Of a stretch of 64,000 nt of DNA, positions 10 to 27,815 are shown piece after piece. Positions within the stretch are counted from its first letter, which is position 1; the number at the start of each line of letters is the position of its first letter. The notes beneath the pieces were generated by a model. The model had not been told where the DNA came from, did no database searches, and saw only the letters and a program-made list of their open reading frames with translations. The position numbers were made by a program, and so were the translations under genes. This DNA comes from Takakia lepidozioides (taxonomy: Eukaryota > Plantae > Bryophyta). The DNA is taken from NCBI GenBank assembly GCA_030704615.1, contig CM060733.1, positions 66,278,001-66,342,000 of the forward strand. Direction: 5' to 3'.

Positions 10-600
10 ATGGAAAAACGGCGCCGAATTTCCATCCGAGGCCGTTCGGATGAAGTCGTCTCGTGGGGAGAGGACGACACCTGCCCGACAGAGAACATCC
101 CCCGGATGGAAAAACGGCGCCGAATTTCCATACGAGGCCCGTCGGATGAAGTCGTCTCGGGAGAGGCCGACACCTGGCCGACAGAGAACCTCCCCCAGAT
201 GGAAAAACGGTGCCGAATTTCCATCCGAGGCCGTTCGGATGAAGTCGTCGCGGGGGGAGAGGCGGACACCTGGCCGACAGAGAACATCCATCGGATGGAA
301 AAATGGCGCCGAATTTCCATTCAAGGCCCGTTGGATGAAGTCGTCTCGGGGGGAGAGGCCGACACCTGGCCGACAGAGAACATCCCCCGGATGGAAAAAC
401 GGCGCTGAATTTCCAGACGAGGCCCGTCGAATGAAGTCGTCTCGGGGGGAGAGGCTGACATCTAGCCGACAGAGAACATCCCTCGGATGGAAAAACGGCG
501 CCGTATTTCCATCCAAGGCCGCACGGATGGAGTCGTCTCGGGGGGAGTGGCCGAAAGAGATCAACTGCAGGATGGAAAAACGACGCCGAATATCCATCAA
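10..600. repeat. Tandem array of ~96-bp units with quasi-palindromic core GATGGAAAAACGGCGCCGAATTTCCATC
   Basis: Units start at 10, 106, 199, 295, 391, 487; the overlapping ORFs are simply translated repeats. Confidence 0.95.
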
Positions 601-749
601 CAGACGCCCGTATCGACCCTTCATCAACAATTTTGATTCGTTTTTCGTGTTTTTTTGTCTAATCAGTCACTCAACTTAGAGTTTTGGCCTGCGGTCCACT
701 TTTTGGCACGTTATGCCCACCAATGTCGTCCGGTAGAGACAAATTTGGT

Positions 750-1100
750 GCCGGATTTCCATCCATGAGGTGGACCGACTTACTTGCAGGATGGAAATTC
801 GGCGCCGGTTTTCCATCCGGCCGCGCTCCCGCTTGCCTGCAGGATGGAAATTCGGCGTCGGTTTTCCATCTTGCAGCGCTCCGGTTTACTTGCAAGATGG
901 AAATTCGGCGCCGGTTTTCCATCCTGCAGCGCTCCGGTTTACCTGCAAGATGGAAATTCGGCGCCGGTTTTCCATCCGGCTGCTTCTGGATGAGAACGTC
1001 TCGGGCGGAGGGAAGGCCACGGTGTGTTCCACTTCATCCGCTGAATGGAAATTCTGCGCCGTTTTTTCCATCCAGCGGGCTGTTGATGAAGTCTCGGGGG
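750..1100. repeat. Array of 53-bp units carrying the same core in opposite orientation (GATGGAAATTCGGCGCCGGTTTTCCATC)
   Basis: ATGGAAATTCGGCG at 791, 844, 897, 950; reverse complement of the core in 10-600. Confidence 0.9.
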
Positions 1101-1323
1101 GAGGGTGGGCCAGGTGGCGCCTGTGGGCGACCTCCATACCTACATTTAAGGGCGCAGTTGTGCATTAAATGTCCTCTACCGTCTGTTTTGAACCGGACGT
1201 TCCACACGGATACCGCGCTTGCTTCCCGGATACACCTTCGACACCTGATGTGACGGGTGGATGAAGTTCCATTCGAGGCATGTACGCACGTATTCTGCGG
1301 GAATTTTTTTCTTTTATTCGGAC

Positions 1324-2012
1324 TTATGCCGCGTGGAGAAGGGCTTGGCTCTCTTGAGAGAAACCCCACATCCAGACCGCGTCGCAAACTAAAGCCTTTG
1401 TACTACGGGCGGCAATGCCGACCAGCCGAACGGCGACAAAGCGGCGCTCGCCCTCAAATGCCAACTTCTTGGCAGAGCCAGTCCCAGTCCGAACTGACTT
1501 GGGAACCCGGACGACCGGCGACTTGGTAGCAGCAGCAGCAGTCGCAGGACCTTGCACAAAGTCGTCGTCGGAGTCACTCCCTTGGGGCCCCTCCTGCGCC
1601 TCCTCTGGTGCCCCGGTGGTTTTCTGTTTTTTGGGGGTTACTTTACTCCCCTGTTTCCGTGTCCTTTTCATTTGTCCTTTATTCTCTCATTCAATTTCTC
1701 TTGAATACCTGCCTGAGCAAGCTTTGCCGCTTTCCTGGACTTGGCAAGCGCTTCCGCCTCCTTTGGACCCAGCGGAGGCAGCGGAGCCTGGTTTCGTCGG
1801 GCCTTCGCATCCAGCTTCAATTGGAACTCAGATGAGTCGAGCGAGCCGGGCGGAAGGTCCACATACCAAGGGCAGTCGCGCAAATGCTCCAAATGCCACT
1901 CCTTCACGATAACGTTAGTGTACATGGAGTCAGCTCCAGGGTTCCTCCATGCGAGGAAGAATGGCGGCTGGAAGGACAGATGACCTTTCTCCAACAGGGA
2001 GAACTTACAGTA
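1324..2012 (-). pseudogene. Probable exon fragment of a transposon-borne protein of unknown function (frameshift near 1670)
   Basis: Minus ORFs 1668-2048 and 1324-1671 abut and read like one charged protein (KEWHLEHLRDCPW...KKQKTT...DSDDDF); acceptor-like TTTTTTGAATGCAG precedes it. Confidence 0.35.
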
Positions 2013-2049
2013 CCTGCATTCAAAAAACACAGACAGAATCACATCCATT

Positions 2050-2490
2050 TTTCCAGACTGGGTCCAAAAATGGCTAAGTCCCAGATCTGACTGGGCCCGG
2101 AACTGGAAAAATGGCGCCGAATTTCCAGAATATGTGCCATCCGCCCCAGGGACTTAGCCATTTTTGAACCCTGTACTGGGAAAATGCGCCATTTTTCCAG
2201 TACAGGGTCCGAAAATGGCTAAGTCCCAGAAATGACTGGGCCCGGAACTGGAAAAATGGCGCCGAATTTCCAGAATATGTGCCATCCGCCCCAGGGACTT
2301 AGCCATTTTCGGACCCTGCACTGGAAAAATGGCGCCATTTTTCCAATTCAAGGTCCGAAAATGGCTAAGTCCTAGAACTGACTGGGCCCGGAACTGGAAA
2401 AATGGCGCCGAATTTCCAGACTGTGCCAGCCACCCCCGGGGCTTAGCCATCCGCTCCATGGCCGGAAACAGGAAATTTGGCGCCATTTTT
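2050..2490. repeat. Three ~145-bp fold-back units with core CTGGAAAAATGGCGCCGAATTTCCAG
   Basis: TGGCTAAGTCC at 2071, 2216, 2362; internal inverted GGCTAAGTCCC/GGGACTTAGCC. Confidence 0.9.
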
Positions 2491-2557
2491 CTAGGGCTTC
2501 ACAACTAATTTTCATGCGCCACATAAGGCAACTTACATCAACGCGCCTTCTGTACAG

Positions 2558-4021
2558 GTACATACGCGTTGCCTTTCTTTGATGCCCACCTGGAACAGGT
2601 TTACGGAGGACTACTAGAGAGCTGGGTTTGGGCTGGCGGGGATGCTCCTGGATGACGGTGGATGTATGGTGGTCCTTGCCACAAGAGGGAAGACCACAGA
2701 GAATGTTGTGGCAAGGTGGACACCAAAAAGTGTCACCCCGGTCCTCCTGAAAAAATGGTTCTGCATCAATACGCAGGGGTTGCGAACAGAGGGCCAGAGT
2801 GTAAGTTATCAATCTATTGCATTCACTTCATATTGTGGTGTATCTAAACTAGACCCTGGGGTGGATCCCTCTTTTGTTGGATGTGCAGACATTGGTGTTT
2901 GAGGCATATTGTTTTGTGAAGAGAGGGTCTACGTTCAAATTCCGCAATGACGGTCATCTTGTTGATGCCACTGTGGACCCTCTTACCTACGATGTCCTCT
3001 ACAACTGTGTGCCCCAATCCAGTATGCCGAAGGACACAAAGACAGGCAAACCGTGGCAGTACAGCCGGACCCAGAGCCTTGCTTTCATCCAAACCCTCAT
3101 GGAGACGTGCTCGGATGTCCAAGGGCGGATTCTTGACCTCACATGTGGCATGGGTAAGCCTTCACGTGCACATTTTGTCCCCTGACCCGATTGCAATTGC
3201 ATGCCGCATGCTACTAACCACCCGCTTTGTCCCTCATGTGCTTCAATGTGGGCAGGGACATTGTCCGATAGGCATGTCTTTGCCTTCGAGCCAGATATTG
3301 CCCTCCACAACTCTGAACTTGCAGCGGCTGAACGTCTGCCGAAAGAGGAAGAGGCATCCTCGGAGGATGAGGAAGAATCCGAGAAGGAGGTGGGGGAGGT
3401 ACAAGTTGGGATCGAGGTCGATGAGCCCCCGATTTACGCGTGAGTGGTCACATTGTAAGTTGCCTCTTGATTTTGTGAGGCACCTCCCTTCGCTCTCTTA
3501 TTTCATTGAAAGACCCTTTTTGGCTTCTGCTGGTATTGACATTCTTAAAGTGGATTTGTTCTTACTGCAGGATGCCAAGTACTGCAAGAGGGACGTCTAC
3601 ACCGCAGTTCATGGGCAGGAGGAACATGCTTTTTTTTGCCAGGGGGGGTTTCATGTCGAGTCCAGAAAGAGACTACATCCTTCCTACTTATGTTGCCCGG
3701 CTTGCTTCGGTGTCCATTAGGAGGTCTTCCGAACCTAGTCGTGTACAACAGATTTTAGACGAGGCAAGCCTCAAGAAAATGAAGATGAGGGAGGAGGCAG
3801 CAGCTATTAGAGCCCGTCAGGCTCGTAGATTTGTCTTGGATTCTGCTGAGGAAAGTGGGGGAGAAGAGGCAGAAGATTCCCAGGAGGTGAGGTGGACAGT
3901 CCCCCAAGGAGAAGACGGAATTTTTGAGAGGCATAGTGGAACTGATGCATCACAGAGCTCGGAGGATGGGGGGGATGAGGGGGATGAGGAGGAAGTGGGG
4001 CAAGTTCCTTGGAGGGTGTAA
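2558..4021 (+). pseudogene. Spliced beta-class amino (N4C/N6A) DNA methyltransferase-like pseudogene, 5' part missing
   Basis: Frame-consistent exons 2558-2800, 2889-3153, 3238-3439, 3571-4021 give PTWNRFTEDY*...LLDDGGCMVV / FEAYCFVK...DVL / SLAFIQTLMETCSDVQGRILDLTCGMG-ASMWAGTLSDRHVFAFEPD, matching the N6_N4_Mtase motif order with C-terminal SAM motif I; TAG at 2615 and mutated acceptor (CAT at 3235-3237). Confidence 0.7.
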
Positions 4022-4191
4022 GAGAGTAGTGCCCATTCCGGCTATGACAGTTAGGACACACTTGTATAGATGTGGCTTGCCACAAAATTTGCAATAAAAT
4101 GTTGCATTTCATTGCTATGACGAGTCCACTGGTGCCACATTCCAACTTCACATGACCCTATTTCCGTGCCTCCTAACCCTATTTCCGTGGA

Positions 4192-4253
4192 CACACAATG
4201 GTCCGCTCATGCTTTTTTTTTTCCCTCTCATGCTCATGCCGCTCATGAAATAG
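4192..4253 (+). mobile_element. Putative DNA-transposon terminus (...GCTCATG repeats...GCTCATGAAATAG)
   Basis: Same GCTCATG-rich end and last 13 nt at 27890-27902; LTR sequence starts abruptly at 4254. Confidence 0.55.
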
Positions 4254-4530
4254 CAGCCCCCTCAGAAGTGACCCCCTCCATGTTGCTACTCTGCCTATTC
4301 TACCTGCAAGCTGTTCTAACCGCCTAACTAACTAACTGTCATCCAAGATAGAATGCACGTTCCCTCTGCAGAAGTTGTTCCCACACAGTTGTTCCCTGCC
4401 AATGATATCCGTTCCTTGTGAACGTTGTGATTAGCTGTGTCAGGCTGTGACTGTGTCGAGCTGTGACTGGCCGTGTCAGACTGTGACTAGCTGTGTCGGG
4501 CTGTGATAGACTGTGATAGGCTGTGACTGA
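4254..4530 (-). mobile_element. Inverted internal fragment of an Athila/Tat-like family LTR
   Basis: Reverse complement of LTR segment ~9100-9305 (GATGACAGTTAGTTAGTTAGG, CTGCAGAGGGAACGTGCATTC, CACAGC repeats). Confidence 0.85.
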
Positions 4531-5290
4531 CTGTGACAGGTGGACGCGGGTTAACGTCAGAAAAGTGGCCGGTGAGTGTAAAGGCAGCTTGGAAGTTAAA
4601 CTCGGAGAATATGCCACGCGGACAGAGAGAGACGGGAGAGAGTTTGAATTCAAACACGTGGCCTAAGGGGCAGAGCGCTCCGCATTGCATGTACTGCAGT
4701 AGCGGGCGCCATTATGCAAGAAGACAAACAAGGCCGTCAAAGTACCTACCCGGTACATCAACCGAAACTAATTACGGGCCCATTAATGCATCCAAGGGAC
4801 AGGTAACAGAACCCTTTATGCGTCCGGCAAAGAGGGACCTTTGCCACATGTGCAGTCCTAGTGGGCATTCCAACTTGGAATGTGAACAGATGAGGGTAAA
4901 ATTGAGAAATTACCCATTGAGGCAACGACCAATCAGGAACGTGAATTTTATGCAAGTGGTTCCATTCAAGAAACAAGAACAAGAAATTAAAAAAGTTATG
5001 AGCGGAAGAGTAGGGGTTGTTCGGGATAACCAGCTTCTCGACGGGAGGGGCAATCAAAGCTATAGTTTTGTAGCTATGGTGGATATCACAGACTATACGC
5101 TAGCTCTACTTCTTACGCAGTGGCGCAAGGACGGACGGGTTGAAAGTACATTCTCTCTCACTCACTATTTGCAAGCCCCACAGGCTTACACTCACTTACC
5201 TGTTCCATTCTATGCCAACCATACTTTCATGCTTTACGCCCTGCAAGCTTTCTACAGCTATTCCAAACAAGGCCTTCTTGTTTGTCCGGG

Positions 5291-8200
5291 ATGAAGAGAA
5301 TTAGAGGGATGGAGGATCTCAGGGTGAAGAGCACGACGATTCTACAGAAGCAGACAATCGCTACACCACAGACAGTGCAGCTGCTGAAGGAGCTGCAATT
5401 GGAGGGGTTGCTATGCAAAGAGTGGTCTTTGCATCATCGGGGGTTGATGATCCAATTCATCCAGAACTTTGAGCCTCAGACATGAGTTACCCAGGTGAAG
5501 GGAGTGGATATAGAGGTTACTCCGCAGTACTTGCAACAACTGTTTGAATTGTCATCTAGTAATGTGAACAAGGATGAGCACAGGGCAAGATTGCAAATAT
5601 GGGATCTGTTCCAAGAAACGAGTTTCTTCAGGACCCAGGGATACACCTGCACCAAGGCCGAGTATCCAGGGTTAAGGGAAGTTGGCCAAATACTGAACGT
5701 TCTGTTTGCCATGAAACAGAACCAACAGTATCTTAGCAGATCTTTCACGGAGGAGGTACTGAAAGCCTTGAGATGAGAGGATGTAGCTTGGGCGGAGATG
5801 ATGTACAATGGTCTGGTGGAGGAGATGAAGTGGTTACAAAATACTACTGCTAAGTCCCCGATCATTGTGTCTGGCCCAATAATTGCGCAAATTATCTTTG
5901 ACTGTTGGTTGCTTGATGCGCGAGAACGCAAGGTGATGGGTGTGTTTGAGACAGCCACAACTGCAGTTGAGGAGCAGGGCTCTTCACAAGGTGAAGGGGG
6001 ATTGGAGGGGTAGCACCAGTCCAAGAGACAGAAGCGGGATGCGACTGTTGTGGTAGATCCACTAGCTACAAGGAAACCACAAGATGATGTTTCCATAGCT
6101 CTTGTGCAGGATGAGGAGCAGCAGCACAGGGGGTTGTTATTGCTGGAAGCACGGCCTTTGGAGAGGGAAGAAGAAGTTACCTCAGTACCACAGCCACCAC
6201 AGCCAGTTGACCCGATTGCCCCAAAGGTAACTCAGATTATACATGCTGTCACACCGGAGCCTCTTGCTATGGAAGGAGAAGGGTTGGACATCCCCACTAC
6301 AGAGCAGGTAGTGGCAGAAATTGAGAAGGGTGACCTTCTCTATGAAAACTCTGGCATGGTCGGAGAACCAATAGTACCAAAGATGCAGAGTCTGCCCAAG
6401 GAAATCCCTGCTGTGCAGGTTATGCCCAAACCTGTGGCGGAGGTTAACGGGGTAAAGGGCAAGGGAACTGCAGCACCTGTGGAGGATGAGGTTGCTCAGG
6501 AAGAAGATCCTGTGGGATCATGGACTGACTGGTTTGTGAAACATCAAACTGTGGAGGATCAGGGAGAACAACAACAAGTTCTCCATGAAGACCCACATCA
6601 GGCCATGCTTATGAGTTCCATAAGCATGACACTTAATTTGTTGGGCACCTATGTAAAGTCCCATGTTCCTTCCACACAATTGGCAGCATTGAGAGAGGAG
6701 CTCAAGCAAGAGTTTGAGGCAAGAATTGCCACTGAGTGTGCAAATAAAGTGGATGTGGAGGCCAACCTTAAGTTGCAGAAAGAGTTGGAGGACACTCAAT
6801 CTGCTCTACAGCTTGCGAAGGAAAACTTGATTGAAGCAGGTCTGGAGTAGGAGAAGTTGCATGAAGTACACAAGCAACAGCTATACCAGTTGCAGGTGAA
6901 GCATGAGGAAAAATTGCAGGAAGTGAAGTTGCTTCATACAGAGTTGGAGGCAGTTCATCAGAAAATGACCATCCAATGTGCCACACTAACAACTACTCTG
7001 GAGCTGACTGCATTAAAAGTTAAGAATCAAGCTGAGAGATGTGTAATGGTGGAGGCTGAGTCAGTGGAGCAGGCAAAGCTCATTGCTGACTTGAAGGCTA
7101 CTATCCATTGCAATGAAGATACCTTTCAACAGTACAGTCAGGTTGAAGCTCAGAAGGACAGGTACATCCTTGAGTTGCAGCAAACACTCACAACACGAAA
7201 GAATGAGCTTTCGGTGACTAACAAGGCCTGGAAGGAAGCTAATAATCTGTCTGCTGCCTATGCAACTCTGGTTGAACCTCATGCAAAGTGCATGGAGAGT
7301 TTACAGCAGCAGTTGCAAACATATAGACTCAAGGAGGAGCAGAATCTCCGTGGTGCTACACAGGACTTGGTAGATAATCATCTTTTGCAAGAATGGTTAA
7401 CACAAGGGTCAGTGGAAGGGAAGGCACCAAGAAAGCTCACCCAAGATGAGATGAATGATCTCAAGCTACAGGTGCAGAACATTGCCACAACCACTATAGA
7501 TAATGTCTATAGTCGGATAGCTGAGTTGCAGGACGATATAGAGGGGCTGCAGACTCAAGTGGATGACTTGAGCTCCAACGTTGACGAAAGGGCCTTTGTT
7601 CTTGAGGAACAACTCATGGCTATTTATCTGCACGTCAGGACTCTGATTCTCCAATCTTCATCGCAGGAGGTGCAGGACTTGCCAACAACAGGAGGGACAG
7701 TGGCGCTAATATCACAGCAACCACAGCAGGTTGACACTGTTGATACCATGGCACTGCAACAATCTGAGGTTTGGGGGGATGCTTCTTTTAACCCACCTAA
7801 GACTCCTGCTGCATTTGAGTACAATCGGGCTATGATTATGTCCTTCAACCAAATTCCCATTGTTATGGATTCGGCTTGGAAAGAATTCAGTCCTCCAGAG
7901 TCTTTGGCACACTATTACCAGATCATGCGCATTTGGTTGCCAGTGGCAACTCAGACTAAGGTTCTTCCGACTAACCAACCCATTGAAGATCACCATTTTG
8001 CGAGGTACTGGTCTGAGGCAGGCACCATGCTGAAGGAATTAATTGCCTTCCAGATTGTTCATGGGTACATCTACACCAAGACCAATGAGGTACCTAGTTT
8101 GGTCATGGGTTGTGGACTATACTATGCTGCTTGTTTCATTTCACGCTATCACGTTGAGCATCAAAAGATGCAGATGCAATTCCAGACTTATTCCAAGTCT

Positions 8201-8845
8201 GAGGATCATTGGGTGTTACCTTCAGTTCCATCCCATACATATCTGTATGATGTGAAGATCAAGCTGCAGAAGGATCCCCAACTTTGTTTCTGGTTCAATT
8301 TTGCTTTGGACAACTTGGCCAAAGAAAACTTGGGTCTTGACCACATTTTTTCTAAGGGACATGAAGCCAGGAAATGGTTACACTGTTCTAATGTCATTGG
8401 CACACCCCTCACCTATACAGACAAGGAGCTGCGGGAGTACACTAATTTTGCTCGCAAGAGATTGATGCAAGTTTTAAAGTTTAACCTTCCAGACATGGTG
8501 GGCAAACACTGTATGCCACGCAGGATTCCTGAGACGCCACAGAAGGTCAGAGCACCAAAAGGCCACCGGGGGGAAGATGATTATGATACTATTGGTTCTA
8601 TGGAGGAACCTTTTGACATGGCTGAGGACTATGCAATACAAATGGCAGAGAAGAAACGACGGGGATCTCCTATGCCTGAGAAGTTACCTCCTTATCAGCC
8701 AAAGGAAGGGTAGTCATTTCCATTTGGTGGGCAGTCATCTCCACCAGCCAGCGACAGGGCTCGGGCTCGCACACAGAGCCCTCCACGGGACTTTCACCGA
8801 CAGAAGGGTCCTCGTTCACAAAGGTTTGCTGATCCTAAACAGTAA
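5291..8845 (+). pseudogene. 3' extra ORF (1184 codons; Athila-ORF1/Transposase_32-like N-terminus plus coiled coil), 5 in-frame stops
   Basis: ORFs 5282, 5495, 5798, 6050, 6857 share one frame; motifs FIQNF...VKGVDIEVTPQYLQQLFEL and VAWAEMMY...SGPIIAQII; homologous to 23207-26761. Confidence 0.75.
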
Positions 8846-8883
8846 ACCGTGAGGACACGACTTTTTGAGAGGGAGAGGGATAA

Positions 8884-9778
8884 TGTTAGAGGGTTGTCTG
8901 GGACTTAGACAATTTTATGGGTTTTGTGGGGTACCATTTATTTTTTGCGCAGACTTATGGATGGTAGACTTAGACCAACATAGGCCTTAGGGGTGGTAGA
9001 CAGGCTTACACAGTCGGACACAGCTTGTCACAGCCTGACACAGCCTTATACAGTCGGACACAGCTTGTCATAGCCTTATATAGCCTTACACAGCCTATCA
9101 CAGCCCATCACAGTCTATCACAGCCCGACACAGCCAGTCACAGCCCGACACAGTTTGGCACAACCCATCACAGTATTCACAGGGAACGGTTATTAGCGGC
9201 ATGGAACGACTGTGTGGGAACAACATCTGCAGAGGGAACGTGCATTCTATCTAGATGACAGTTAGTTAGTTAGGCAGAGTAGCAACAGGGAGGGACACTT
9301 CTGGGATCACGACTTGGTCATCAGGGAGAAAATGACGATCTGGAGTTGAGGGATGGAGAGCGCAGTGGAGGAGGAGACACGAATTGTTGATGCTTGATTC
9401 ATGCAAGCTGTAGAGTTGTACTGTAGAGCAGATTAGAGACACCATGGCTTCGGCCTGATACTTGATAGATATTAATCTGATACATATTCCATACTTACAC
9501 TGTGTAGAGAGACCTGAATGAAGCTGTGGAATGAATGGATGAGTGGTTGGAACCTGGTAGATTGCTGAAGCAATTTGATACTTAGACATAGACAATAAGT
9601 TAACTTGCTAATATGAATGTGAGAAGGAATACTAATAGGAAGCACCCCCATGATACACTACCTGTAGGTCATGACTGATTGTTCTGAGCGGGCTGAGTGC
9701 TTAGAGATATCCAACTCTTCTATCTTGGAGTTTCCACCACGCATAGCGAAGGGATGGGTGAGTAAAAGCCGCTTGACA
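8884..9778 (+). repeat. 3' LTR of copy A (TG...CA) with CACAGC microsatellite
   Basis: TGTTAGAGGG...GCCGCTTGACA; similar to 17168-18166. Confidence 0.9.
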
Positions 9779-12700
9779 GTAGTAGGGGGTGGTTTGAAGG
9801 ATGATGTAATCTCGGACTCGGCCTCATCATCCTCCAAATTGGAGGCCCAGCGTAGCTTGCATTCCTCGGACGAGTACACCTATGACTCAGGTGATGAGGC
9901 ATGAGGGATGGTTCCCAGTTAGAGACATGTACAGGTAGTACTCGTTTTATGTATATATATTTTCAGTTGCCATTTCGATCCTCATTCTAACCTTGATGGA
10001 CATGTGGATTTGGTGGGTCGACCTATAGATTAGAATGCATGTAATTCTTGCAAGCACAAGGCACACCCCAACCCCCAAGAAAACCCCATACCTAACCCCC
10101 CCCCCCAAAAAAAAACCCCAAAACCCCACCCCAAATACCAGCTGGCTACCCTCCCACCCACCCCCCCCCAGCGACGCCTTTGTGACGTCCCGGGGCGACC
10201 AGCGATGCTCTACCGATTCTTGGGCGTCGCAACAGAACCACCCCATCGTAGAGCTAGCGACGCCGCCCAGGGGCGGTGACGTTGGTGCGACTCCCGGGAG
10301 TCGCATAAGAATGTGCCCTCCCCTGGAGCTAGTGACGTCCCTGGGGGGCTGCGACGTCTATGCGATTCCCGGGCGATCCCACCACCAAACCCCTGGTATG
10401 GCAGGCCCTTGCAAAGAGAGAATGAGTGATGAGGGGGAAAAAAAAGGGGGGGGGGGGGGGGGGGGGGCGGGGGGGGGGTTGACTGTGTAGCAGCTGCTCA
10501 ACACCCCCCCCCCCCCCCCAATTTTTTTTTTTTTTTTTTTCTCTCATCTCTCTTTATCTGTCCCTCTGTCCCTCTTTTCCCTCATCTCTCCCTCTCTCTC
10601 CCTCTGTCCCATGAAGATGTGGAGAGAGAGGGAGAGAGAGGGACTGTTGAGGGAAAAAAAAAACAATGGGGGCGGGGGGGGGGGTGTGACTAAGCAGCAG
10701 CTGCTGCTCAGTCACTCCCCCAATCCCCCAATCCCCCACCATTTTTTTAATTTATTTTTTCCCTCAACAGTCTCTCTCTCTCTCTCTCCCTCTCTACTGG
10801 GAATTGGCAGTTTGCTATCAGTGTTGACTTCTTGTTTTCTCATCTTCTATCAGGCTTTTTCATCCATACCGGATGAGCCACCAGGATGGACACTGAATTA
10901 CCTCTAGGATGGTTCTTTTGGCCTTTTCATTCCTCCTTTATTGACTCTCATCCATACCGGATGAGTCACCATGGAAGAAAAGAATTACCTCTATGGAGGT
11001 TGCCAACAACATCCTGTTTTTCCATCCGTACCGGATGAAAAACTACCAGGGTGATAATTTTTCATTCCTCTTTTATTGACTCTTTTTTATCCATACCGGA
11101 TGGTCTGGTGAGGAATGATAGAATTACCTAGATGGAGGTAAGGCGCTGCCACGGATGATATTCCCTACTTTTTCATCCTGACACAAGTGATCTGTCTATG
11201 GATGATATGATTATGGCCTGGAATTGATCTAAACTATCCCTAATTATTAATTACGGTGGAAACCCTAACCCCTACCCCAAAACCTATTTTTAACCTTGCT
11301 GCGGATGAAATCCGTCAGGGTATACGGATTCGTCCTACTGTTTTTCATCCACGGATGAATAATCGGGGGACAACCCTATGTCGTCTCTCCCGCTGTCAGA
11401 AGCACGCGATGTGCTTCTGAGCTCGCGAGGAGAGTGTTATGCTTCGGTGGCTGCCCCGTTTGTGGTGTCGTACCCATGCTGGACGAGCGCCTGGGGGGGT
11501 GCGAAGGCGGCGCCTTGTCTCTCTTGCAGCGGGAAACACCGCTTTGAATGCAGTGGCATCTTCCCTCCTCTGGCTTTTTCTGTGCTTAGCAAGGATACTT
11601 ATGATGGGAAGTTCTCCCCCTCCTTTCTAGTGCTTTGCAATTGTGCATGCTTTGCTTCATTGCTTATGTGCTTTGTGGAGGCGGCTTGCTGTGGGTGGTG
11701 ATGGCGCATAACCCTCTTCCCCAATCGCTTAAGGTGCCTTTGGAGTTTAGGGATTCTCATGTTCTTATCTCTTTCTCTTGCTTTTGAGTTTCCTAGTTGA
11801 CATATATGACAAGTGTGAGGGTCTGTGATTCACTTGGGGTTCCACAATTCTCACTAACCTGTTGGTTTTTGTGGGGGCTTGTGATGGGACCAGGTGAGGA
11901 CCCTCACCTACTTCGAAGTTTCTTGAGCATGCAGATTGGGATATGGGCTGAGGAGACCTATGGGTTTATGCGCTGTGAGGTGGCTGCTGCCTGTAGCCCC
12001 GATTTCAACCCGACTGCCCCTAGCTTGACATGCTACAGCCTGCGTTCTGGCCTTTGTCGTTCTGCCGCCGATGCGCAGCTCGGCCTGACTGGCCTGTTTC
12101 CTGAGGCTTGCATACAAACCATTCTCTACCTTTTGATCTTTGACAGCAAAGCCTGTGGATTATTAAGCTAGGTTGTAAGTTCTTTTGGCCAAAGAGGATC
12201 TGGTTTTTGGTGGTATGTTTTTGGCGGTTTTGGGTGACTATGGACCTGAGGGCCTTGAAGTTTATGGCGGCAGCCTGGTAGGGTACTGCCCTGCTCTTTT
12301 TCAGGCCTGCTTCTGATGTGTACTGGATCATAGTAAGGTGTTCTTTGCATGTCTTAGCATGGAACTCTTGAAGGATGAGGATGGTAAGCTGCAATGGGAT
12401 CCTACCTATAGTTTTGGCTCTGTCATGACATCAAGCCTATGACCTGCAATCTGGTTTTTTATATACAAAAGAGGCTGGATCTCGACTATTCATGCTGCTT
12501 GTTTGTACAAGTCTTGAACCTGCAATTTGACAAGCTGCATTCACATTCCCTTGATACCTTGTATGATCACATGTCTCGGGGTGAATACAAATGATATGGA
12601 ATCTATTTCATCTTGCTCAAGTTGAACTGCTTGGTGGCATACTGAGATTCTGACAAACTGCAGGCTGGTCCTTATGCCTTGGCTGATGCATGACCTGCCA

Positions 12701-13674
12701 TAATTAATGGCTGAAATGGTAGGCTGCTAGTATGTGTACAGGCTGAACCAAGAGGCCTTGCAGCCTGCACAGGGACACCAATATCTTATCTTGTCCCACA
12801 CATGAACACATGATTCATTGGCCAAGATGGCCGGATCTCGGGTGTTCAAGATGCTTGCATCCCCTACATGAACAAACCCCGCCCTCCCACCCTGTTTTAT
12901 CATGACTGATATGTCAATTCATGGGAAGCTATGACAAGAATGGAAATGTTAGATGGTGCCATGTTTTGGGTTGTTTATGTCTTTAATTGACAATGACCCT
13001 AGTGGGTTTTGTCCATGTCTTGACATGACATGAATATCTTCCCTCTCTCTCCTTTTGTCCCATCAAGATGTGGAGAGAGAGGGAGAGAGGGGGAGCGATG
13101 AGGGAAGAAAAAAAAAAAAAAAGGTGGGGGGGTGGGGGGAGTGACTGAACAGCTGCTATTTTTTTTTTCTCTCATCTCTCCCTCTCTCTCCCTCTTTTCC
13201 CTCATCTCTCCCTCTGTCCCAGCGCCTCTCCATGTAGGCATCACTGTGCAGACATGTAGTCATATGATCATGGCAAGAAGTCGTGACATGTCAAATTCGC
13301 AGTGGTGCACGTGTCCATCCGTCGCCTCTCCATGTAGGCATCACTTTGCAGACATATAGTCATATGATCCCCTGACAAATGCATGACGTGTCGTTTGCGC
13401 AGTGGCGCACGTGTCCCGCTGAAGCCTCTCCATGTAGGCAGCGCTCAACAGACAATGTAGTCATATATTAGTCATATAGTTGTGACTGCAACCCTCTCTG
13501 CAGCAGGACTCCAGGTGCCACGCAAGCAGTCATGGATATGACTTGCAAAACGCAGTCCTAAAGACTAGTCGCTAGGACAGGGTTTTTTTCACTACAGAGT
13601 GATGTAGTCATGCGCATATAAGACTGAAAAAATAGTCATATGTGAAGTCATAAAAACGCTCATCTGTTGTAGTG
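9779..13674. mobile_element. Arm of a CACTA/EnSpm DNA transposon (left boundary uncertain)
   Basis: Ends CTGTTGTAGTG at 13674 (reverse complement CACTACAACAG); ~100-bp subterminal repeats CTCTCCATGTAGGCA at ~13226, 13326, 13426; LTR-element sequence resumes at 13675. Confidence 0.65.
10860..11360. repeat. Dispersed TCATCCATACCGGATGA-type hairpin motifs
   Basis: Copies near 10860, 10948, 11022, 11089 plus GATGAAA/TTTCATC variants. Confidence 0.6.
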
Positions 13675-14802: not shown

Positions 14803-14881
14803 TAGTTCGGACAGTACATGCAATTGTCGTTCTATTACGGACCTTTGCATTGGTCCCTCACCATTGTTTCTGTCCTTGTAG

Positions 14882-16378
14882 GAGCGGTGCTTGGATTCCG
14901 ACACGGACATGCCGAACACAAATATGGTAGAATCAGTCCACTCCTCCTGGCGAGCGTCTTCTGCCGCACATCTGGTGGACGTAGTGACGGCCACAACGGA
15001 GGACATCGATAGAGCAATCATGTAGCAAGCCACGTACTACAAGTTCCTGAGCGGGAAACAATGGGGCTTTGGGCCGGACAGGGAGGAATTGTTGGTACGA
15101 ACAGCTTCGAGGTCAAAGAATCCACTGAAATGGGCGACAACATTGCGAGAGAAGATCAAAGGGACGCCTCTGCACCGCAGAGGTGAACACCTAGAGGGGG
15201 ACGTCCGTACTCGCCCTGTGAGGTGGAGGATTGAAGAGGCACCTTTGCAGGATGGACAAACTTCTTCACATCGTACTAAGGAAAAGCCACACCATGCGAT
15301 TGCGGTTGTCCGGGTGCGAAGAGGATTCCTGGAGATCCGACATGAACATTCGGACAGCACCTCGAGGTCCCGTCATGTTGCCGCACAGTGTGTCTTCCAG
15401 AAGTGGAAGCCCAAGAAATTCCAGATCGCCATCGCCTTCAAGCGGGGATTCCGTGCGAGAAATTCCCACCGCTCGCTTGCCCCAAATTCCGCCCGCTGTT
15501 ATGCAGTATGGCCAAGCCATTGTGGAGCGACTGTGTCTACGTCACAGTGGAGAATTGCACACACAAAGCCGACATTTCGAGGCAGGTGTTCCGCAATTCG
15601 AGTGGATACACGACAACGTTGTTTAGAGATGATAAGGAGGAATCCAAATGGGGTTGTCCCTGCTCCTACTTTTACAGGAAGATTTGTCCATGCAAAGTTT
15701 GCGAAGGCGACAACCACCCAGTTCTGGTTCTACAGGCACGACATTATGACTTGCGTGTATGGAAAGCCCAAGTACGGCATACAAACAATGCCAGAGGCTC
15801 CCCCGGTGTGGCCGGTGGAACCAGGCTGCGATCTGAGTCAGGTTGAGGCCAACGCCCTTACTGCCGCTGGATTTTGGATGGCGCAGTGCACTGACGTCCC
15901 CAGACAACCATTTCCGCTTCCATAGCCTCCACCACCGACCCCTGTGAGAGCAAGAACACTGGGACGTGACAGCTCTTAGCATCCTACACACCATTGGGGG
16001 AAACCGAAGATGCGGCGACCTCCCTCAAAAGTGAACGAGACAAGGATGGGGAATGCACTTCGGATGAACTGTACAATCTAGAGCTCGACAGAAGTGCCCC
16101 CACCAGGCTTCGGGCGTGTGTATCAGATGGCCACGGCAGGCTCAGCTGTTCGCAATGAGGTGTACACCATCACCATTTCAGAATTATCCACCTACAATTG
16201 CACCGACTTCCAGATCATGGCAAACAAGGGGGCATCATATTGCCCTTGCAAGTATCTGTACTACGTGTACCTAAAGAGACTCCGGTGTAATTCCACAACT
16301 CATCACTTCATACATGCACCAGGGTTGAGCCCCCAAGAGGTGCACACTCTTCTGAATATGGATCCAGGGGACCAGTGA
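14882..16378 (+). pseudogene. C-terminal exon of a DDE transposase-like protein with SWIM zinc finger (Mutator-like, tentative)
   Basis: One frame from acceptor at 14881: PNTNMVESVHSSW (TNxxESxH, putative catalytic E)...GFGPDREEL...YTITISELSTYNCTDF...CPCKYLYYV (degenerate CxC...CxH); four in-frame TAG stops. Confidence 0.6.
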
Positions 16379-16631
16379 GCTTGGCTTGCGGTCCCCACAC
16401 AATGGTACGCCCATCCTTTTCGGATAGTAGAACTGTACTGCTGCAAGTAGCTCTGACTCTGGCCACAGAAAGGTCCGACTTATGTTCTGCCTACCAGTAA
16501 TCTGTTTTGCTCGAACTAAGATAATACTATGTCATTCACTTGTGTTTCCACGTGCTTGTATTTTTGTTTGTTGGAGGGTTCCTGTTTTTCTGCTCTCCCA
16601 AACTTTGCTTTCCTCATTCGACCCCCGACAA

Positions 16632-16653
16632 GGAAATGCGGCGCCGCATTTCC
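16632..16653. repeat. Perfect 22-bp palindrome GGAAATGCGGCGCCGCATTTCC
   Basis: Directly visible; variant of the core motif in arrays 10-2490. Confidence 0.9.
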
Positions 16654-17167
16654 AAGTAACGTCGTAGGTACTGGTAGATGCGGCCTTCGTCATAGCAAGA
16701 TAGTCGCACCCAGCCTTCACGGAGCCGACCGTCACCAACACCAAACCCCCCAGAAATTTCGCACGTGCGAATCCTAATGCGACACTGCATTTCCCAGTTG
16801 AGTCGCAAACCTTTCCCGCTGAATACCCGCAGAATTGTGAAGTACTGCAGACTCTATTGGTGTAGACTCTATTGGTTCAATCGCGGCAAAAGGGTCAGCT
16901 CCATTCCAATGTTAAGGCATGTAAAACCGCGGAATACTCTATACAGGCTAGTATGTGACGTCATTTTGCCGTGGTATACTGGATTTCTCGTTGCACGGTC
17001 ACTCATTTCCTTGAGCGGATTTAAAAAAACCATGAGCAGACTTGTTACTGACGACATATCTTCGCCGCATTACAGGATCTGGAACTTCCAAAAATGGCAA
17101 GGTCAAATTTAAAAACTATTATTTTAATACTTGTTTAATCTGCCGCATTTCCAAATTTGGAGGAGTC

Positions 17168-18166
17168 TGTTAGAGGGCTGCTTAGGACTTAGACGCTTTT
17201 ACGGGATCTGTGGGGTACCCTTAATTTTTACATAGACTAAGACCAACAGGAGCCTTAGGGTGAGACCAACAGACTTTAGGGGGGGAGATACATAGCCCGA
17301 CACAGTCCATCACAGCCCAACACAGCCGTCACAGCCCGTCACAGTCCAACACAGCTAGTCACAGCCCGACACAGCCGTCACAGCTTCGCACAGCCAACAC
17401 AGCCCGTCACAGTCAGACACAGCCGTCACAGCCAGTCACAGCCCGACACAGCCGCCACAGCTTCGCACAGCCCGACACAGCCAGTCACAGCCCGCCACAG
17501 CCTGACACAGCCAGTCACAGCTCGGAACAGCTGGGGGGACAGTTATCATTGGCAAGGAACGACTATGGGGAACGACATCTGAAAAAAAAACATGTACTAC
17601 AGGGATGACGGTTAGTTAGGAAAGCAGTTAGAACAGCTTGTAGGGAGATAAAGCGAAGAGCGGGGACGTCTGGGGATCACTTCTTGGTGGGGGACTTCTG
17701 GCATCAAGGCTTGGAAATAGAGGGGAGAGCACATCTCTGAGTGGAAAGATGAAGAGCACGGAGTATGAGAAGTGACGATCTGTTGTTACTTGATGAATGC
17801 AAGCTGAAGAATTGTAATGTAGAGTAGATTAGAGACACCATGGCTTCAGCCTGATACTTGATAGATATTAATCTGATACATACTTCATACTCACACTGTG
17901 TAGAGAGACCTGAGTGAAGCTGTGGAATGAATGGATGGAACTTGATAGATTTCTGAAGCAAACTGATACTTAATTGCAGATAGTAAGGTAACTCGCTAAC
18001 ATGAATGCGGGAAGGAGTACAAATAGGAAACACCCCCATGATACACTAGCTGTAGGTCATGACTGATTGTTCTGAGCGGGCTGAGTGCTTAGAGATTTCC
18101 AACTCTTCTATCTTGGAGTTCCCACCTCGGATAGCAAAGGGATGGGTGAGTAAAAGCCGCTCGACA
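17168..18166 (+). repeat. 5' LTR of copy B
   Basis: Near-identical to 26801-27810. Confidence 0.97.
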
Positions 18167-19063
18167 TTTGGCGACCATACTGGGGAATTGGGTCATGAAC
18201 AACCAGATGTGACAGGCATCTGGTGGGATCATGGTGGTTGGAGAATTAAAGAATTTGATGTGAATCAAATTCCCTGTGAAACTGAGAAGGAAAGATTGTC
18301 CAAACGATTCTTTCAGAGGTTCTTGGAATTGCCAGACGGTTGTAAAGAAAACATTCTTAAAAGAGTGCATGATGCTGACCCTGAATGGGGTCTGGAGAAA
18401 GGAGTGATAAAGATTTATCAGGTGGCCTTCAGAGGAAGAGCACGTTGGTTACCAACACTGGTTTATGTGATAGCATTGCTATCCATTAAGCGAGTAGAGT
18501 TTGAAGGCTGGGAGGAAAGAAAGGTGAATGTTTATACTCATATGCATGAAGAGCTTGTACTGGTAAAGAATTGGATTCCAAAGGATATTTTGTGGATCAA
18601 ACTCACACCAAGAACAGCTTTCCAGACTTGTTTGCCATATGGTTATATGGTAACAGAGACTTCTAGTATAGCCAAGGGTGCATTGAAGCTTGAAAGAAAC
18701 CCAGGCATATACGAGAGATATTACAGAAGAGAGTTTTGGTTATTGCCACATTAAAAGAAATGAAAGACATGGGACATGAGTGATGAAAGAGAAGCTAGAC
18801 TCCAGAGATATTCAGCAAAAAGAGAAAGCTATTTGAAAGCTAATTATCCATATCTTTGGGAGAGAGGAATAGACATAGGGGAATCATCTGGACCTCTCAC
18901 ACCATTAAGATCAGGGAGTACATCACCCATACCGGAAGAACTAGAGTTGGATGCCACTCTTTCTTTTTCTTTGCAAGAAAGATTAAGGGAATTGGTACGG
19001 GAAGAAGATCAATCACGAGGTGAAAGATCTGAGGTACATCCCTGGATAAAAGATTTGACATAA
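18059..19063 (+). CDS. 5' extra ORF region upstream of gag, unknown function (ORFs 18059-18754 and 18776-19063, same frame)
   Basis: 231-aa and 95-aa same-frame ORFs with globular composition; the first ATG lies inside the LTR. Confidence 0.45.
18169..18184 (+). promoter_or_regulatory. Primer binding site TGGCGACCATACTGGG (probably tRNA-Arg)
   Basis: TGG start 2 nt after the LTR; complement ends GGTCGCCA like plant tRNA-Arg(UCG). Confidence 0.75.
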
Positions 19064-19144
19064 ATCTTTGATAAGAGTTGGCATGGAACACCAAAAGTAG
19101 GAACTCCAGTTTCTGAAACGGAAGGTGAAAAAGGAGGAGAGGAT

Positions 19145-20920
19145 GTGGTAGAGCCAACGGAGAGTTCAGACTCTCCAACACCATTACAGTTGAGTTACAT
19201 GAGTGAAGAAGAAACCCAAGGGCAGAACTTGGAGGATGAAAATAGAGAGAAGAAATTGGAAGAGGAAGAGTATGAAGAAGTAGACCCAACAGCTGAGGTT
19301 GAGACTACGACCAGGACATCCCAACCCGTTGGACCTGGATCAAGTGGAGCACTTGGATCACAGGCCAACGAAGGTGTCGGCTCAGGGGGATCAGGCGGGC
19401 TGCTTGGATCTGGCTCTGGGGGGACAGGGAGTGTGGGAAGTAGTGCAACTGGAGCTGGGAATACTGTGAATATCGTGGGGCCAGTAGCAGGGAGTGCTCA
19501 AGGGCCACCACTTGGTGGAAGATCCACCACAACTACAACAGGTCCTAAAGGACCAGCACCAGCAAGGGTGCCAGCACCAGTCAGTGGGCAGAAGGAAGGG
19601 CCACATATGGCGTTACAACCCACACGGGCAAAACCACATTTTCCAATATATTCAGGAAAAGGGGATCCCGATGTACACATTACCCAATTTGAGCACATGT
19701 GTATAGTGAACAATGAGAATGGCGATGATGCCAAGATGAGATTATTTCCTTGTTCACTTATCAAGAACGCAAGTGAATGGTATGCAAGATTCCCCGATAA
19801 TCATTTCCTAACCTGGAATGGCTTGAATACAACATTCCGAAATAGGTTCAGGACAAGTAAAACTGAGGATGAAGTGTATGGAAGTTTACAACAGTTAAAG
19901 CAAAAGAAGCATGAAACTGTTGAGGAGTATATGGAAAAGATGGAATTGATGATGAAAAGCTGGCTGCTGTACCAGCACCAGGTTTACAGAAGACTTGGTT
20001 TGTGAGTGGACTAAGACCAGAGTTGCAAAAGAAAGTGGATATGTTACCCCATAATACAGTGGAGGAGGCATTTGAAACAACGAACAGAATTGAGCAGTTG
20101 GGAATGCTCAGGAGAGAGAAAAGGGATGATGAGGACTCTGAGGATGAGTCAGATGAAGAAGAAGAAGAAGAACTGAAAAGGAAGAGTAAGAGAAAGGAGA
20201 AGTTGCAGAGGGATAACTATGAGAAAAGATTAGAAGAAATCTTGAAGAAGTATGCCACAGAGGCTGCAACACATTGGAGGAAGGGTGTTTGGTGTGCAAA
20301 GTGCCAGAATGAAGGCCATACCACCACAGAATGCCACATGAAGGAGAAACACTATACTATCTGTAAGATGGATAACCATTCTACTGAGAATTGTTACTAC
20401 AACAGAAGGACATCTGCAAGAGAACCTAGGCAAGTAAGGGTGCATCAAGTGCAGCCCCAACCAAGAAGAAACAGTGATCATGACCACTATGGTAGGCCTG
20501 GTGGTTATAACAATGGCATGGAAGGGAGAGGTAATTCAAGAGGGAATTACCAAGGAAATTCCAGAGGCAACTATCAGGGTAATCCAAGGGGGAATTACTA
20601 GCCAGGGAATCAGGATTACAGAAATAATCCAAGAGCAATCCAAGGGCGAGGACCCAATGGTGAAGAACTGTGTTACTATTGTAATCAGCCAGGACATCGC
20701 AAGGCAGCATGTTCATTCTGGATTAGACACCAGAATGAGATGAGAGCTCCTGTGAATGAGGGCCCAGTGGTGGTTGCTCATATGGTTAGGCCATGTGTTG
20801 TACCAGAAGTAAGTACAATGATAGTAACAAGAAGAAAAACCAAACTAATACCTCCAGTAGTTGAGGAAGATGATGATAATGAAGATGGCAGTGATGTGCC
20901 TGAAGATGATGAGGCTCTTC
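19145..20920 (+). pseudogene. gag: gag (capsid domain plus zinc knuckles), disrupted
   Basis: YSGKGDPDVHI...W...TWNGLNTTFRNRF...QKKHETVEEY; CAKCQNEGHTTTEC and CYYCNQPGHRKAAC; frameshift ~19960, stop 20599. Confidence 0.85.
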
Positions 20921-20984
20921 ATATCACACGACACAACCAGGCAGTTTGGCATCTCCATAAGCTCTTTCTAAACCGCGCTGAAAC

Positions 20985-22100
20985 CAGATGATGGAGTACT
21001 TAAACGATGCTTGTACCACCATGAAGTAAATAAAGTTTTGGAGGAAGTTCATAAAGGAGTGGCTGGAGGTCATTTTGGAGAAGAGACTACCAGTAGGAAG
21101 ATACTACTTGCAGGTTACTGGTGGCCTACTTTGTTCAAAGATGTACACAAGTATTGTCAGAGTTGTGATGAATGTCAGAGGCTAGGACCTTTGAAGAGAT
21201 CTGGGAAGATGGCTTTCCATCCTACGATGCCTACTGAACCATTTCAGAAATGGGGACTAGACTTTGTTGGACCAATTAACCCACCAGCCAAGAATACACA
21301 GAACAGGTACATAATTACAGCCACTGATTATACTACGAAGTGGGTGGAAGCTAAAGCTTTGAGGGACAACACAGCCAAGTCCACAACAAGGTTCCTGTAT
21401 GAGAACATACTTACACGATTTGGCTGTCCCTTGGAATTTATCAGCGATCAGGGAAGTCACTTCATTAATGAGACCATTGAACTATTGACTAAAGAGTTCA
21501 TGATTGTGCATAAGAAGAGTACAACGTATTACCCACAGGGTAATGGGCAGGCAGAGGCTACCAACAAAATACTATGTACTATCTTGGCTAAGATAGTCAA
21601 TGCAAACAAAACGGATTGGGATACAAAGCTGCTGACAGCTTTGTGGTCATACATGACTTCATATAAAGTCACCACTAAGTATACACCATTCCAATTAGTT
21701 TATGGTATGGAAGCTTTACTTCCAGTGGAATTCCTGTTACCTACCATGAGAACGGAATGGGGAAAGAGAATGGAATTGCAAGATTCAATTAAGGTCAGGA
21801 AACATGAATTATACCATGTGGAAGAAGTACGTGCTGATGCAGCTGATAACATGACCAGAATTCAGATGAAGAGAAATGAACAGTTTGATGAAGGCAAGTT
21901 AAAGACTTTTAAGACGGGAGATTTGGTTCTCTAGTTGCAGAAGAAGGGAAAGATTAAAGCTTCTAAGCTTAAATCACCATGGAAAAGACCATATGTCATA
22001 CAGAAGATGTATGATAACAACACCGCCATGTTTCAAACCATTAACAAAGAGATGCTGGGAAGAGTCAATGCGAATAAGTTGAAGGGGTACAGTGGTATCC
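20985..22100 (+). pseudogene. Gypsy integrase (HHCC, DDE, GPY/F-like)
   Basis: VHKGVAGGHFG...CDEC; WGLDFVGP; ISDQGSHF; GNGQAEATN; PWKRPY; stop at 21932. Confidence 0.92.
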
Positions 22101-22234
22101 ATGACAAACCATTGCAGCATGATTTGCATGTTGAAACGCAGAAGCAGTCACGGGCTGCGCCAGTGATACCAACAGAGTATGGAGCACTTGTCGCTAGGCC
22201 GAGCGTATATGACCAGGGAGGGCAGTACAAGCGC

Positions 22235-26761: not shown

Positions 26762-26782
26762 ACCGTGAGGACACGGCTTTTT

Positions 26783-26796: not shown

Positions 26797-26800
26797 TAAA

Positions 26801-27810: not shown

Positions 27811-27815
27811 GAGTC

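What the first reader, a model, noticed from the sequence alone, without database searches (positions are those of the whole stretch)
2558..4021. Intron-containing bacterial-type N4C/N6A DNA methyltransferase-like gene inside a putative DNA transposon
Seen: four phase-compatible exons, missed by the ORF track, splice into a protein with beta-class amino-MTase motif order (LxxGG-hhh; E-hhh-K; DV; helix-S-x3-G-x-ILDxxCGxG-S-x2-A-x4-R-hhh-E-x-D) and an acidic tail. The N-terminal DPPY/SPPY exon is not found and this copy is dead (TAG 2615, acceptor CAT). Known: eukaryotic 4mC writers of this class are rare (bdelloid N4CMT, Marchantia DN4MT1). Inference: a spliced, TE-borne amino-MTase family, meaning a second and chemically different TE methylation system in the same window.
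Basis: partly seen in the sequence, partly recalled or inferred. Interest (0 to 1): 0.78.

Follow-up and report, generated by a model that had tools for sequence, protein, structure and literature searches.

The report
Plant transposon's bacterial-type methyltransferase gene
This is the broken rear half of a spliced gene for a bacterial-type DNA methyltransferase fold, carried at one end of an abundant jumping gene in what is likely a land plant; sister copies are spliced, the protein likely marks or guards its own element's DNA, and the design is already reported from algae.

Summary
A contig from a likely RNA run lies on 2583-2800, 2889-3153 and 3238-3399 and skips both introns exactly; a poly(A) end sits at 4115. 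The TAG at 2615 is TGG in nearly all other copies. Relatives in other genomes keep two intron positions and the same terminal motif, and weak but concordant hits point to beta-class N6A/N4C DNA methyltransferases. The gene sits 240 bp inside a transposon-like right end at 4261. Corrections: homology starts at 2583, a mid-exon deletion; upstream DNA is scrambled; the second terminal motif (27890) belongs to another element. The catalytic motif of this family could not be read. In a distant sister family, 0 of 29 copies covering it have a canonical motif (16 read QFPD), so activity, and 4mC in particular, is unproven. ParB domain and transposase were not found. Transposon-borne amino-methyltransferases are published for brown and red algae, and this scan noted the design in other plant DNA before. 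New member of a known kind; interest 0.5.

The parts
12..1068 (.). 12 copies of a 22-bp near-palindrome with a GGCGCC core, in 96-bp and 53-bp tandem arrays; likely protein-binding sites (inferred)
   Evidence: 0 of 100 shuffles give any match; CpG o/e 1.17 over 1-1100
1100..1444 (+). Fragment A: joined directly to 2539 in other copies; likely part of an upstream exon of the element (inferred)
   Evidence: joints 1442/1444 to 2539 in X1; loose ends before 2539 in X1 and X6 resemble 1415-1444
1445..2538 (-). Fragment B, inverted and displaced in this copy: an exon (2013 down to 1446) and intron DNA with 145-bp repeats holding 5 more palindromes (2105-2492)
   Evidence: X6 record 10 has 2500-2539 then the reverse of 2543-2583; X9 contig 25 covers 1446-2016; no family hit
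2539..2582 (+). Fragment D: end of an upstream exon with a likely donor at 2558, phase-compatible with the exon in B; not part of the methyltransferase exon
   Evidence: open for 120 codons in 1 of 3 frames; donor role inferred
2583..2800 (+). Remnant of the exon that bears motif IV in homologs; 5' part with the catalytic motif deleted; private stop TAG 2615-2617 (TGG in other copies)
   Evidence: (E 2e-7 to L003)
2801..2888 (+). Intron, 88 nt, phase 0, matching position in L001/L003
   Evidence: skipped by X9 contig 26
2889..3153 (+). Exon: motif VIII-like strand, variable region, motif X helix and first half of SAM-binding motif I (DLTCGMG)
3154..3237 (+). Intron, 84 nt, acceptor reads CAT in this copy
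   Evidence: skipped by X9 contig 26; equals the 28-aa gap against intron-less L001
3238..3439 (+). Exon: rest of motif I, motif II (FAFEPD) and first acidic stretch
3440..3570 (+). Intron, 131 nt, phase 2 (inferred; not shown bridged by a contig)
   Evidence: X9 depth drop
3571..4021 (+). Last exon: short conserved block shared with L001/L003, then acidic tail and stop
4093..4115 (+). AATAAA at 4093 and poly(A) addition site at 4115
   Evidence: 29-A loose end in one X9 contig
4205..4261 (+). Transposon-like right end: GCTCA repeats, then CCGCTCATGAAATAG and 8 more bases ending in CCC
   Evidence: contigs of X5, X9, X10 leave the window after 4261 with other flanks; same motif 3' of the homolog in L001

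Best explanation
This is the 3' half of a spliced accessory gene at the right end of a high-copy, likely DNA-transposon family; intact copies are predicted to encode a beta-class amino-methyltransferase-fold protein that likely binds SAM, would be recruited to the element's own palindrome arrays, and would methylate adenine (more likely than cytosine N4) there to keep the element expressed against host silencing. Shown: splicing and polyadenylation of sister copies, high copy number, the open frame in other copies, a conserved element end, motif order X-I-II after VI-VIII, and the palindrome arrays. Inferred: that arrays and gene belong to one intact element, binding to the palindromes, catalysis, the base modified, and the anti-silencing outcome. 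This copy is dead: 5' deletion at 2583, private stop, CAT acceptor, scrambled upstream DNA.
For: Spliced contig and poly(A) end, 11,196 contigs of run X1 laid on 3.3 kb, and varied flanks after 4261. Stop absent from other copies: 173,584 of 173,647 summed depth in X1, and the single covering contig in each of X9, X10, X6. Homologous spliced gene with the same end motif in other DNA (0 of 200 shuffles). Family signals: ESM Atlas gives PF01555 for the window exon (0.87, a lead only) and for the homolog's N-terminal exon (0.92); 4 of 4 plasmid records and 19 of 20 listed phage records (38 found) are DNA methyltransferases; top 2 of 5 PDB hits are a DpnA-type adenine methyltransferase, E 0.034; hhalign 96%, E 4e-9 over 53 columns. 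The window family keeps the GxG loop and the acidic motif II residue. 17 palindromes within 2.5 kb upstream, none in shuffles; CpG is not depleted over 1-1444 (o/e 1.1-1.17) but is over the gene (0.49) and the neighbouring retroelement (0.32). Precedent: Sola1-1_Ec32 and Plavaka PAG2/PAG3.
Against: Motif IV of this family is outside the visible letters. The only related family with a readable motif has none canonical in 29 of 41 ORFs that cover it, and most relatives lack the first Gly of GxG. Pfam finds nothing on the window's own exons at E<=1; best PF01555 E-values on relatives are 0.07 and 0.13, far under the curated cut-off. NCBIfam's 3 weak hits are non-DNA methyltransferases. The N-terminal half is weakly supported by the local profile (4 of 200 shuffles reach the homolog's score; the window's exon 2 was not scored), and that profile was built from hits to the homolog, so it is partly circular. 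No ParB domain, transposase, left end or target-site duplication was found. The link between arrays and gene crosses three breakpoints. High CpG in the arrays may only reflect a CG-rich repeat unit.
Confidence: 0.42

Rival explanations
1. The same transposon accessory protein, but catalytically dead or chemically altered: the methyltransferase fold would act as a DNA-binding or base-flipping module on the element's palindromes (an anti-silencing factor or transposase helper), without writing 6mA or 4mC.
For: 0 of 29 covering ORFs of the sister family have a canonical motif IV, 16 read QFPD. The first Gly of motif I varies among relatives. Inactive N6A-methyltransferase domains in DIRS1 elements are a published precedent (PMC4738411, passage). 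One consensus row hints that the last visible upstream codon is Asn rather than Tyr.
Against: The sister family is only 24% identical and its ORFs are near-copies of one lineage, not independent. The window family keeps GxG intact. The Asn hint rests on the far end of one consensus of 12 loose ends (agreement 0.83) and also fits the residue after a canonical motif. MAFFT placed PTPF, not QFPD, against DPPY, so the register is set by eye and by a low-confidence strand prediction.
Confidence: 0.35
2. An active 4mC writer comparable to bdelloid N4CMT or Marchantia DN4MT1 that acts widely on the host genome.
For: Same permuted beta-class fold; the domain has switched between 6mA and 4mC repeatedly (PMC8885841); the palindrome core has C residues in a CG context.
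Against: No SPPY seen; listed hits that name a base name adenine; no chain named N4CMT among the 5 PDB hits; the gene is high-copy and end-linked rather than a domesticated host gene.
Confidence: 0.08
3. A passenger: a methyltransferase-like gene fragment captured Pack-style and amplified without serving the element.
For: This copy is chimeric; the same 45-bp end is shared by elements with other interiors (27817-27910; loose ends before 4217 in X9/X10); L001-L003 differ by 0-3 synonymous and 2-3 non-synonymous codons over 107 codons, no sign of selection among those copies.
Against: Gene and end motif stay together in a homolog with 24% protein identity, about 180-240 bp apart in both; frame open in nearly all copies at 2616.
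Confidence: 0.1
4. An RNA or small-molecule methyltransferase of the class I fold rather than a DNA enzyme.
For: NCBIfam's only hits on the homolog's exon are a peptide methyltransferase, CmoA and CpaM (E 0.03-0.16). The FPD after the strand recalls TrmB (recalled, no call; a paper search found nothing).
Against: Those hits cover only the SAM-binding strand region; the permuted order and motif X match PF01555; plasmid and phage hits are DNA methyltransferases; no TrmB family hit in Pfam.
Confidence: 0.05

Closest known systems
Accessory gene of Sola1-1_Ec32, Ectocarpus (PMC12477816; passages and three supplement rows seen)
   Same: Transposon-borne gene with a predicted N4C/N6A methyltransferase domain, proposed to bind and modify its own element; the supplement gives a moss Sola1 transposase (Sola1-1_PPa_tp) as that element's best blastp hit.
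   Different: The algal protein has a ParB-like domain and faces a transposase; neither is visible here. Its ends (AACCG..CGGTT) differ from the end seen here. No sequence comparison was possible.
Plavaka accessory genes PAG2 and PAG3 of red algae (bioRxiv 10.1101/2025.02.11.637652; passages seen)
   Same: PAG2 has a PF01555 domain on a DNA transposon; tandem inverted-repeat arrays lie next to the ParB-bearing PAG3 and are proposed as binding sites.
   Different: PAG2 is fused to SET, and the arrays go with a 2OG-oxygenase gene, not the methyltransferase; no SET domain was seen here.
Bdelloid N4CMT (PMC8885841; passages seen) and Marchantia DN4MT1a/b (bioRxiv 10.1101/2021.02.12.428880; abstract and passages seen)
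   Same: Intron-bearing (N4CMT) or plant-encoded (DN4MT1) eukaryotic beta-class amino-methyltransferases of bacterial type.
   Different: Both are low-copy host genes with SPPY and shown 4mC activity; this gene is high-copy, end-linked, has no chromodomain, and no SPPY or activity is shown. Orthology was not tested.
Prokaryotic beta-class methyltransferases, PF01555 (DpnA-type M1.HpyAVI 5hek; phage and plasmid DIPY/DPPY enzymes, L004-L012)
   Same: Catalytic half before SAM-binding half; motif X helix, DxxxGxG, acidic motif II.
   Different: Only weak sequence scores; the histidine-proline-threonine start of motif X is replaced; spliceosomal introns and a long acidic tail; sister family has QFPD at motif IV.

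Membership tests
beta-class N6A/N4C DNA methyltransferase (PF01555) | Pfam gathering score reached | tested here: not met
   No hit on window exons; relatives 12.6 and 13.5 bits against cut-off 26.7. Only single exons could be submitted, which lowers scores.
beta-class N6A/N4C DNA methyltransferase (PF01555) | Permuted order: motifs IV-VIII, target-recognition region, then X-I-II | tested here: met
   N-terminal half weaker (4 of 200 shuffles)
beta-class N6A/N4C DNA methyltransferase (PF01555) | SAM-binding motif I (DxxxGxG) and acidic motif II | tested here: met
   DLTCGMG and FAFEPD in the window; first Gly lost in most relatives
beta-class N6A/N4C DNA methyltransferase (PF01555) | Catalytic motif IV (D/N/S)PP(Y/F/W) in this family | tested here: inconclusive
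   Deleted in the window; loose ends show only 30 letters and stop short
beta-class N6A/N4C DNA methyltransferase (PF01555) | Catalytic motif IV in the sister family (L001/L003) | tested here: not met
   0 of 29 covering ORFs (41 examined), 16 QFPD
beta-class N6A/N4C DNA methyltransferase (PF01555) | Fold by structure comparison | tested here: inconclusive
   Half-domain models pLDDT 43 and 41; no Foldseek match at E<=0.001
beta-class N6A/N4C DNA methyltransferase (PF01555) | Methyl transfer to DNA | not testable with these tools
   needs assay or modification calls
N4CMT / DN4MT1-type 4mC writers | SPPY motif and 4mC product | tested here: inconclusive
   No SPPY in window or 41 sister ORFs; own family's motif unread; papers
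Sola1-1_Ec32-type ParB + methyltransferase accessory gene | N-terminal ParB-like domain | tested here: inconclusive
   No Pfam/NCBIfam hit on fragment B or upstream exon of L003; the middle of the gene is missing from the window
Sola1-1_Ec32-type ParB + methyltransferase accessory gene | Transposase gene on the opposite strand | not testable with these tools
Sola DNA transposon | Terminal inverted repeats and 4-bp target-site duplication (PMC10741241) | tested here: inconclusive
   Only right ends found; no reverse-strand copy of the end within 9 mismatches of 27. Three ends finish in C-pyrimidine-C, which fits a recalled Sola2 pattern that no call confirmed
DNA transposon (any superfamily) | High copy number with a sharp end and variable flanks | tested here: met
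   (X5, X9, X10 leave at 4261; X9 and X10 share one flank type, so three flank types with the window's)

The most novel reading that the evidence does not exclude
A land-plant transposon lineage carries a bacterial amino-methyltransferase whose catalytic motif has been rewritten (QFPD in the sister family), so that it either writes a DNA mark other than 6mA/4mC or acts as a non-catalytic reader that shields the element's palindromic promoter from host 5mC silencing.
Probability: 0.3. Interest if true: 0.8.

Novelty: new member of a known kind. Interest (0 to 1): 0.5.

Why it matters
Land plants are described as having few N6A-methyltransferases (PMC4738411), and transposon-borne amino-methyltransferases are in print for algae only as predictions. 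An abundant, spliced and polyadenylated family in a likely land plant, with a defined 22-bp candidate site, makes 'does a transposon chemically mark its own DNA?' testable by one assay and one long-read run. If the rewritten motif holds for this family too, it points to a pseudo-enzyme anti-silencer or new chemistry. I found no land-plant report, but the library lacks most subscription papers, including Iyer et al. 2011, cited as reporting such proteins in algal transposons.

Tried and rejected
Protein searches for long relatives found none (0 of 798 and 0 of 7993 candidates; weak evidence by the tool's own note). Direct searches with the window's read-through protein gave nothing in phages or PDB; profile A1 gave no methyltransferase in PDB. 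Two of the 10 HMMER hits (P0002, P0011; 3816 and 5670 aa, many stretches) were dropped as likely low-complexity matches and not examined; 8 were used. Viral and prokaryotic genome scans gave no relatives. Both AlphaFold half-models were too poor to use. No listed run is on record as RNA; X9 and X10 are guesses. Rejected: 2558 as exon start; 4241 and 27890 as the two ends of one element (same orientation; the second is the end of an element split by a gypsy with a GAGTC duplication); fragment B as a recognisable transposase (no hit; role open); summed depth as a copy number (the tool forbids that reading). Bao et al. 2009 on Sola ends was not held; searches for Sola termini and for the TrmB motif gave nothing useful. 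Look-alike searches among earlier findings by sequence and nearby place were blank. bioRxiv supplements were not opened; the red-algal supplement and the Ectocarpus consensus FASTA may bear on motif IV and on the ends.

Full report
Observation. The stretch holds four exons on the + strand, 2583-2800, 2889-3153, 3238-3439 and 3571-4021, which join in frame to 378 residues with one stop. Public runs confirm the structure: contig 26 of run X9 (RNA by the tool's guess) lies collinearly on 2583-2800, 2889-3153 and 3238-3399 with 46 differing letters, so a sister copy is spliced at exactly the first two introns, and another X9 contig carries 29 A's after 4115, 17 bases behind AATAAA. Other X9 and X10 contigs cross intron 1 unspliced, so these runs also hold unspliced or DNA-derived sequence. 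The third intron was not shown bridged and is inferred. The TAG at 2615 reads TGG in 173,584 of 173,647 summed depth in X1 and in the one covering contig of each of X9, X10 and X6, so the stop is private to this copy. Run X1 laid 11,196 of 3,038,600 contigs on 3.3 kb: the sequence is a high-copy repeat, though the depth gives no copy number.

Family. The window's exons have no Pfam hit at E<=1. HMMER over 1.84 billion representatives gave 10 hits; 8 are short frames of 30-48% identity, several ending at the same intron position. A metagenome scan gave 3 loci from 101 candidate stretches. The spliced model of L003 aligns with the window model over 338 residues at 24% identity, E 3e-21, with introns at the matching places for introns 1 and 3, and conserved blocks even in the last exon. 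Intron 2 is absent from L001, and the 28-residue gap equals its 84 bases. A profile of 9 such enzymes scores the window model at 16.8 bits (0 of 200 shuffles) and hhalign gives 96% over the 53 columns of motifs X to II. Against: that profile came from hits to the homolog; the N-terminal half scored only 0.8 bits (4 of 200 shuffles reached it); NCBIfam's 3 weak hits are non-DNA methyltransferases; both structure models were unusable.

Catalytic motif. Motif IV lies in the same exon as 2583-2800, shortly upstream of the break. Contigs of five runs show the same natural flank at 2583, but only 30 letters are printed; they end one base short of a full codon (xAT, then Gly) and cannot fix the motif. 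In the sister family the strand VDLVFL is followed by QFPD where prokaryotic enzymes have DPPY or DIPY. Of 41 ORFs, 29 cover the site, 16 read QFPD and none has a canonical motif anywhere. These ORFs are close copies of one lineage. MAFFT chose another register (PTPF against DPPY); neither register is canonical. The window family keeps DLTCGMG, while most relatives have lost the first glycine. N4CMT needs its SPPY, and the domain alone does not tell 6mA from 4mC (PMC8885841, passages). Activity is therefore open.

Transposon link. Contigs of X5, X9 and X10 leave the window after 4261; X9 and X10 share a flank type, X5 and the window have others. The motif CCGCTCATGAAATAGCA recurs with 2 mismatches about 180 bases behind the stop of the homolog in L001 (0 of 200 shuffles). 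There, in the window and at 27910, eight bases follow ATAG and end in C-pyrimidine-C. To the right of 4261 lies an interrupted copy of a repeat that elsewhere in the window is an LTR. The motif at 27890 has the same orientation and ends a different element, 14.9-17.2 kb plus 27.8-27.9 kb, split by a gypsy element with a GAGTC duplication. No left end, duplication or transposase of the methyltransferase element was found, so the superfamily is not established.

Upstream anatomy. Other copies join 1444 to 2539 and carry 1445-2538 in the opposite orientation behind 2539-2583 (X6 record 10). This copy is thus scrambled, then deleted at 2583. Seventeen copies of a 22-bp near-palindrome lie in 12-2492 and one at 16632; shuffles give none. 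CpG is undepleted over 1-1444 (o/e 1.1-1.17) but depleted over the gene (0.49) and the next retroelement (0.32); the repeat unit is itself CG-rich, so this is suggestive only. A donor at 2558 is phase-compatible with the exon in the inverted piece. That these pieces are the 5' part of the same gene is inferred, not shown; they match no family.

Mechanism. I commit to a self-marking accessory enzyme (0.42): the protein would be recruited to the element's palindromes and methylate adenine there, keeping the element expressed. A close rival (0.35) is the same protein with a dead or rewritten active site acting by binding alone; inactive methyltransferase domains are known in DIRS1 elements (PMC4738411, passages). 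A genome-wide 4mC writer (0.08), a passenger fragment (0.10) and a non-DNA methyltransferase (0.05) are less likely.

Known systems. Sola1-1_Ec32 of Ectocarpus carries a 1104-aa ParB plus N4C/N6A methyltransferase gene opposite its transposase, proposed to modify its own element (PMC12477816; passages; supplement row). Red-algal Plavaka elements carry PF01555-SET (PAG2) and ParB-oxygenase (PAG3) genes with inverted-repeat arrays (bioRxiv 10.1101/2025.02.11.637652; passages). It works like these; membership is not shown, since ParB and transposase are missing here. Both papers and the palindrome-as-binding-site reading came to me through earlier AI notes of this scan, which list 9 similar findings in at least 2 genomes; I checked the papers and counted the palindromes myself. 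Other notes call the host a likely moss; I did not test that. Spliceosomal introns and gypsy elements show a eukaryote, and one holder is a plant metagenome. Literature searches showed no land-plant report; the hits other than those cited were seen as listings with abstract starts only.

Verdict. A real, well-supported gene remnant; a new, likely land-plant member of a kind known from algae; chemistry unproven, with a non-canonical catalytic motif in the sister family as the main new lead. Interest 0.5.

Noticed in passing
window 34854-36008 (+), with a second copy near 50143-52771 (-): C5 DNA methyltransferase fragment (PF00145, E 1.9e-7) inside a repeated element whose other copy has integrase and PHD-finger frames; earlier notes describe this Gypsy-DNMT family many times.
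   Followed up: no
window 14880-17167 and 27812-27910: A second element with the same right-end motif, one palindrome at 16632 and a Cys-rich, SWIM-like stretch at 16082-16378 (by eye, recalled motif; no Pfam support), split by a gypsy insertion with a GAGTC duplication.
   Followed up: partly
window 17168-27811: Gypsy element with 97%-identical LTRs, gag and integrase frames and a long extra ORF region at 22.6-26.4 kb that is 76% identical to 4688-9153 and has no family hit.
   Followed up: no
window 60180-62255 (+): Intron-less 691-codon frame for AIR carboxylase (PurK-PurE fusion; PF00731, PF02222) amid repeats; a host gene or retrocopy.
   Followed up: no
window 4299-4540 (-) versus 9082-9275: LTR-family repeat with 10-bp CACAGC-type arrays in inverted orientation to its other copies, cut at the methyltransferase element's end.
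   Followed up: partly
window 3800-3870 and L001 1170-1210: Both last exons keep a short 'AR..(F/Y)..D.A..S' block before the acidic end, a possible protein-binding motif.
   Followed up: no
window 10446-10800 and 13060-13220: Long G/C runs and purine-rich inverted repeats flanking an unidentified stretch.
   Followed up: no
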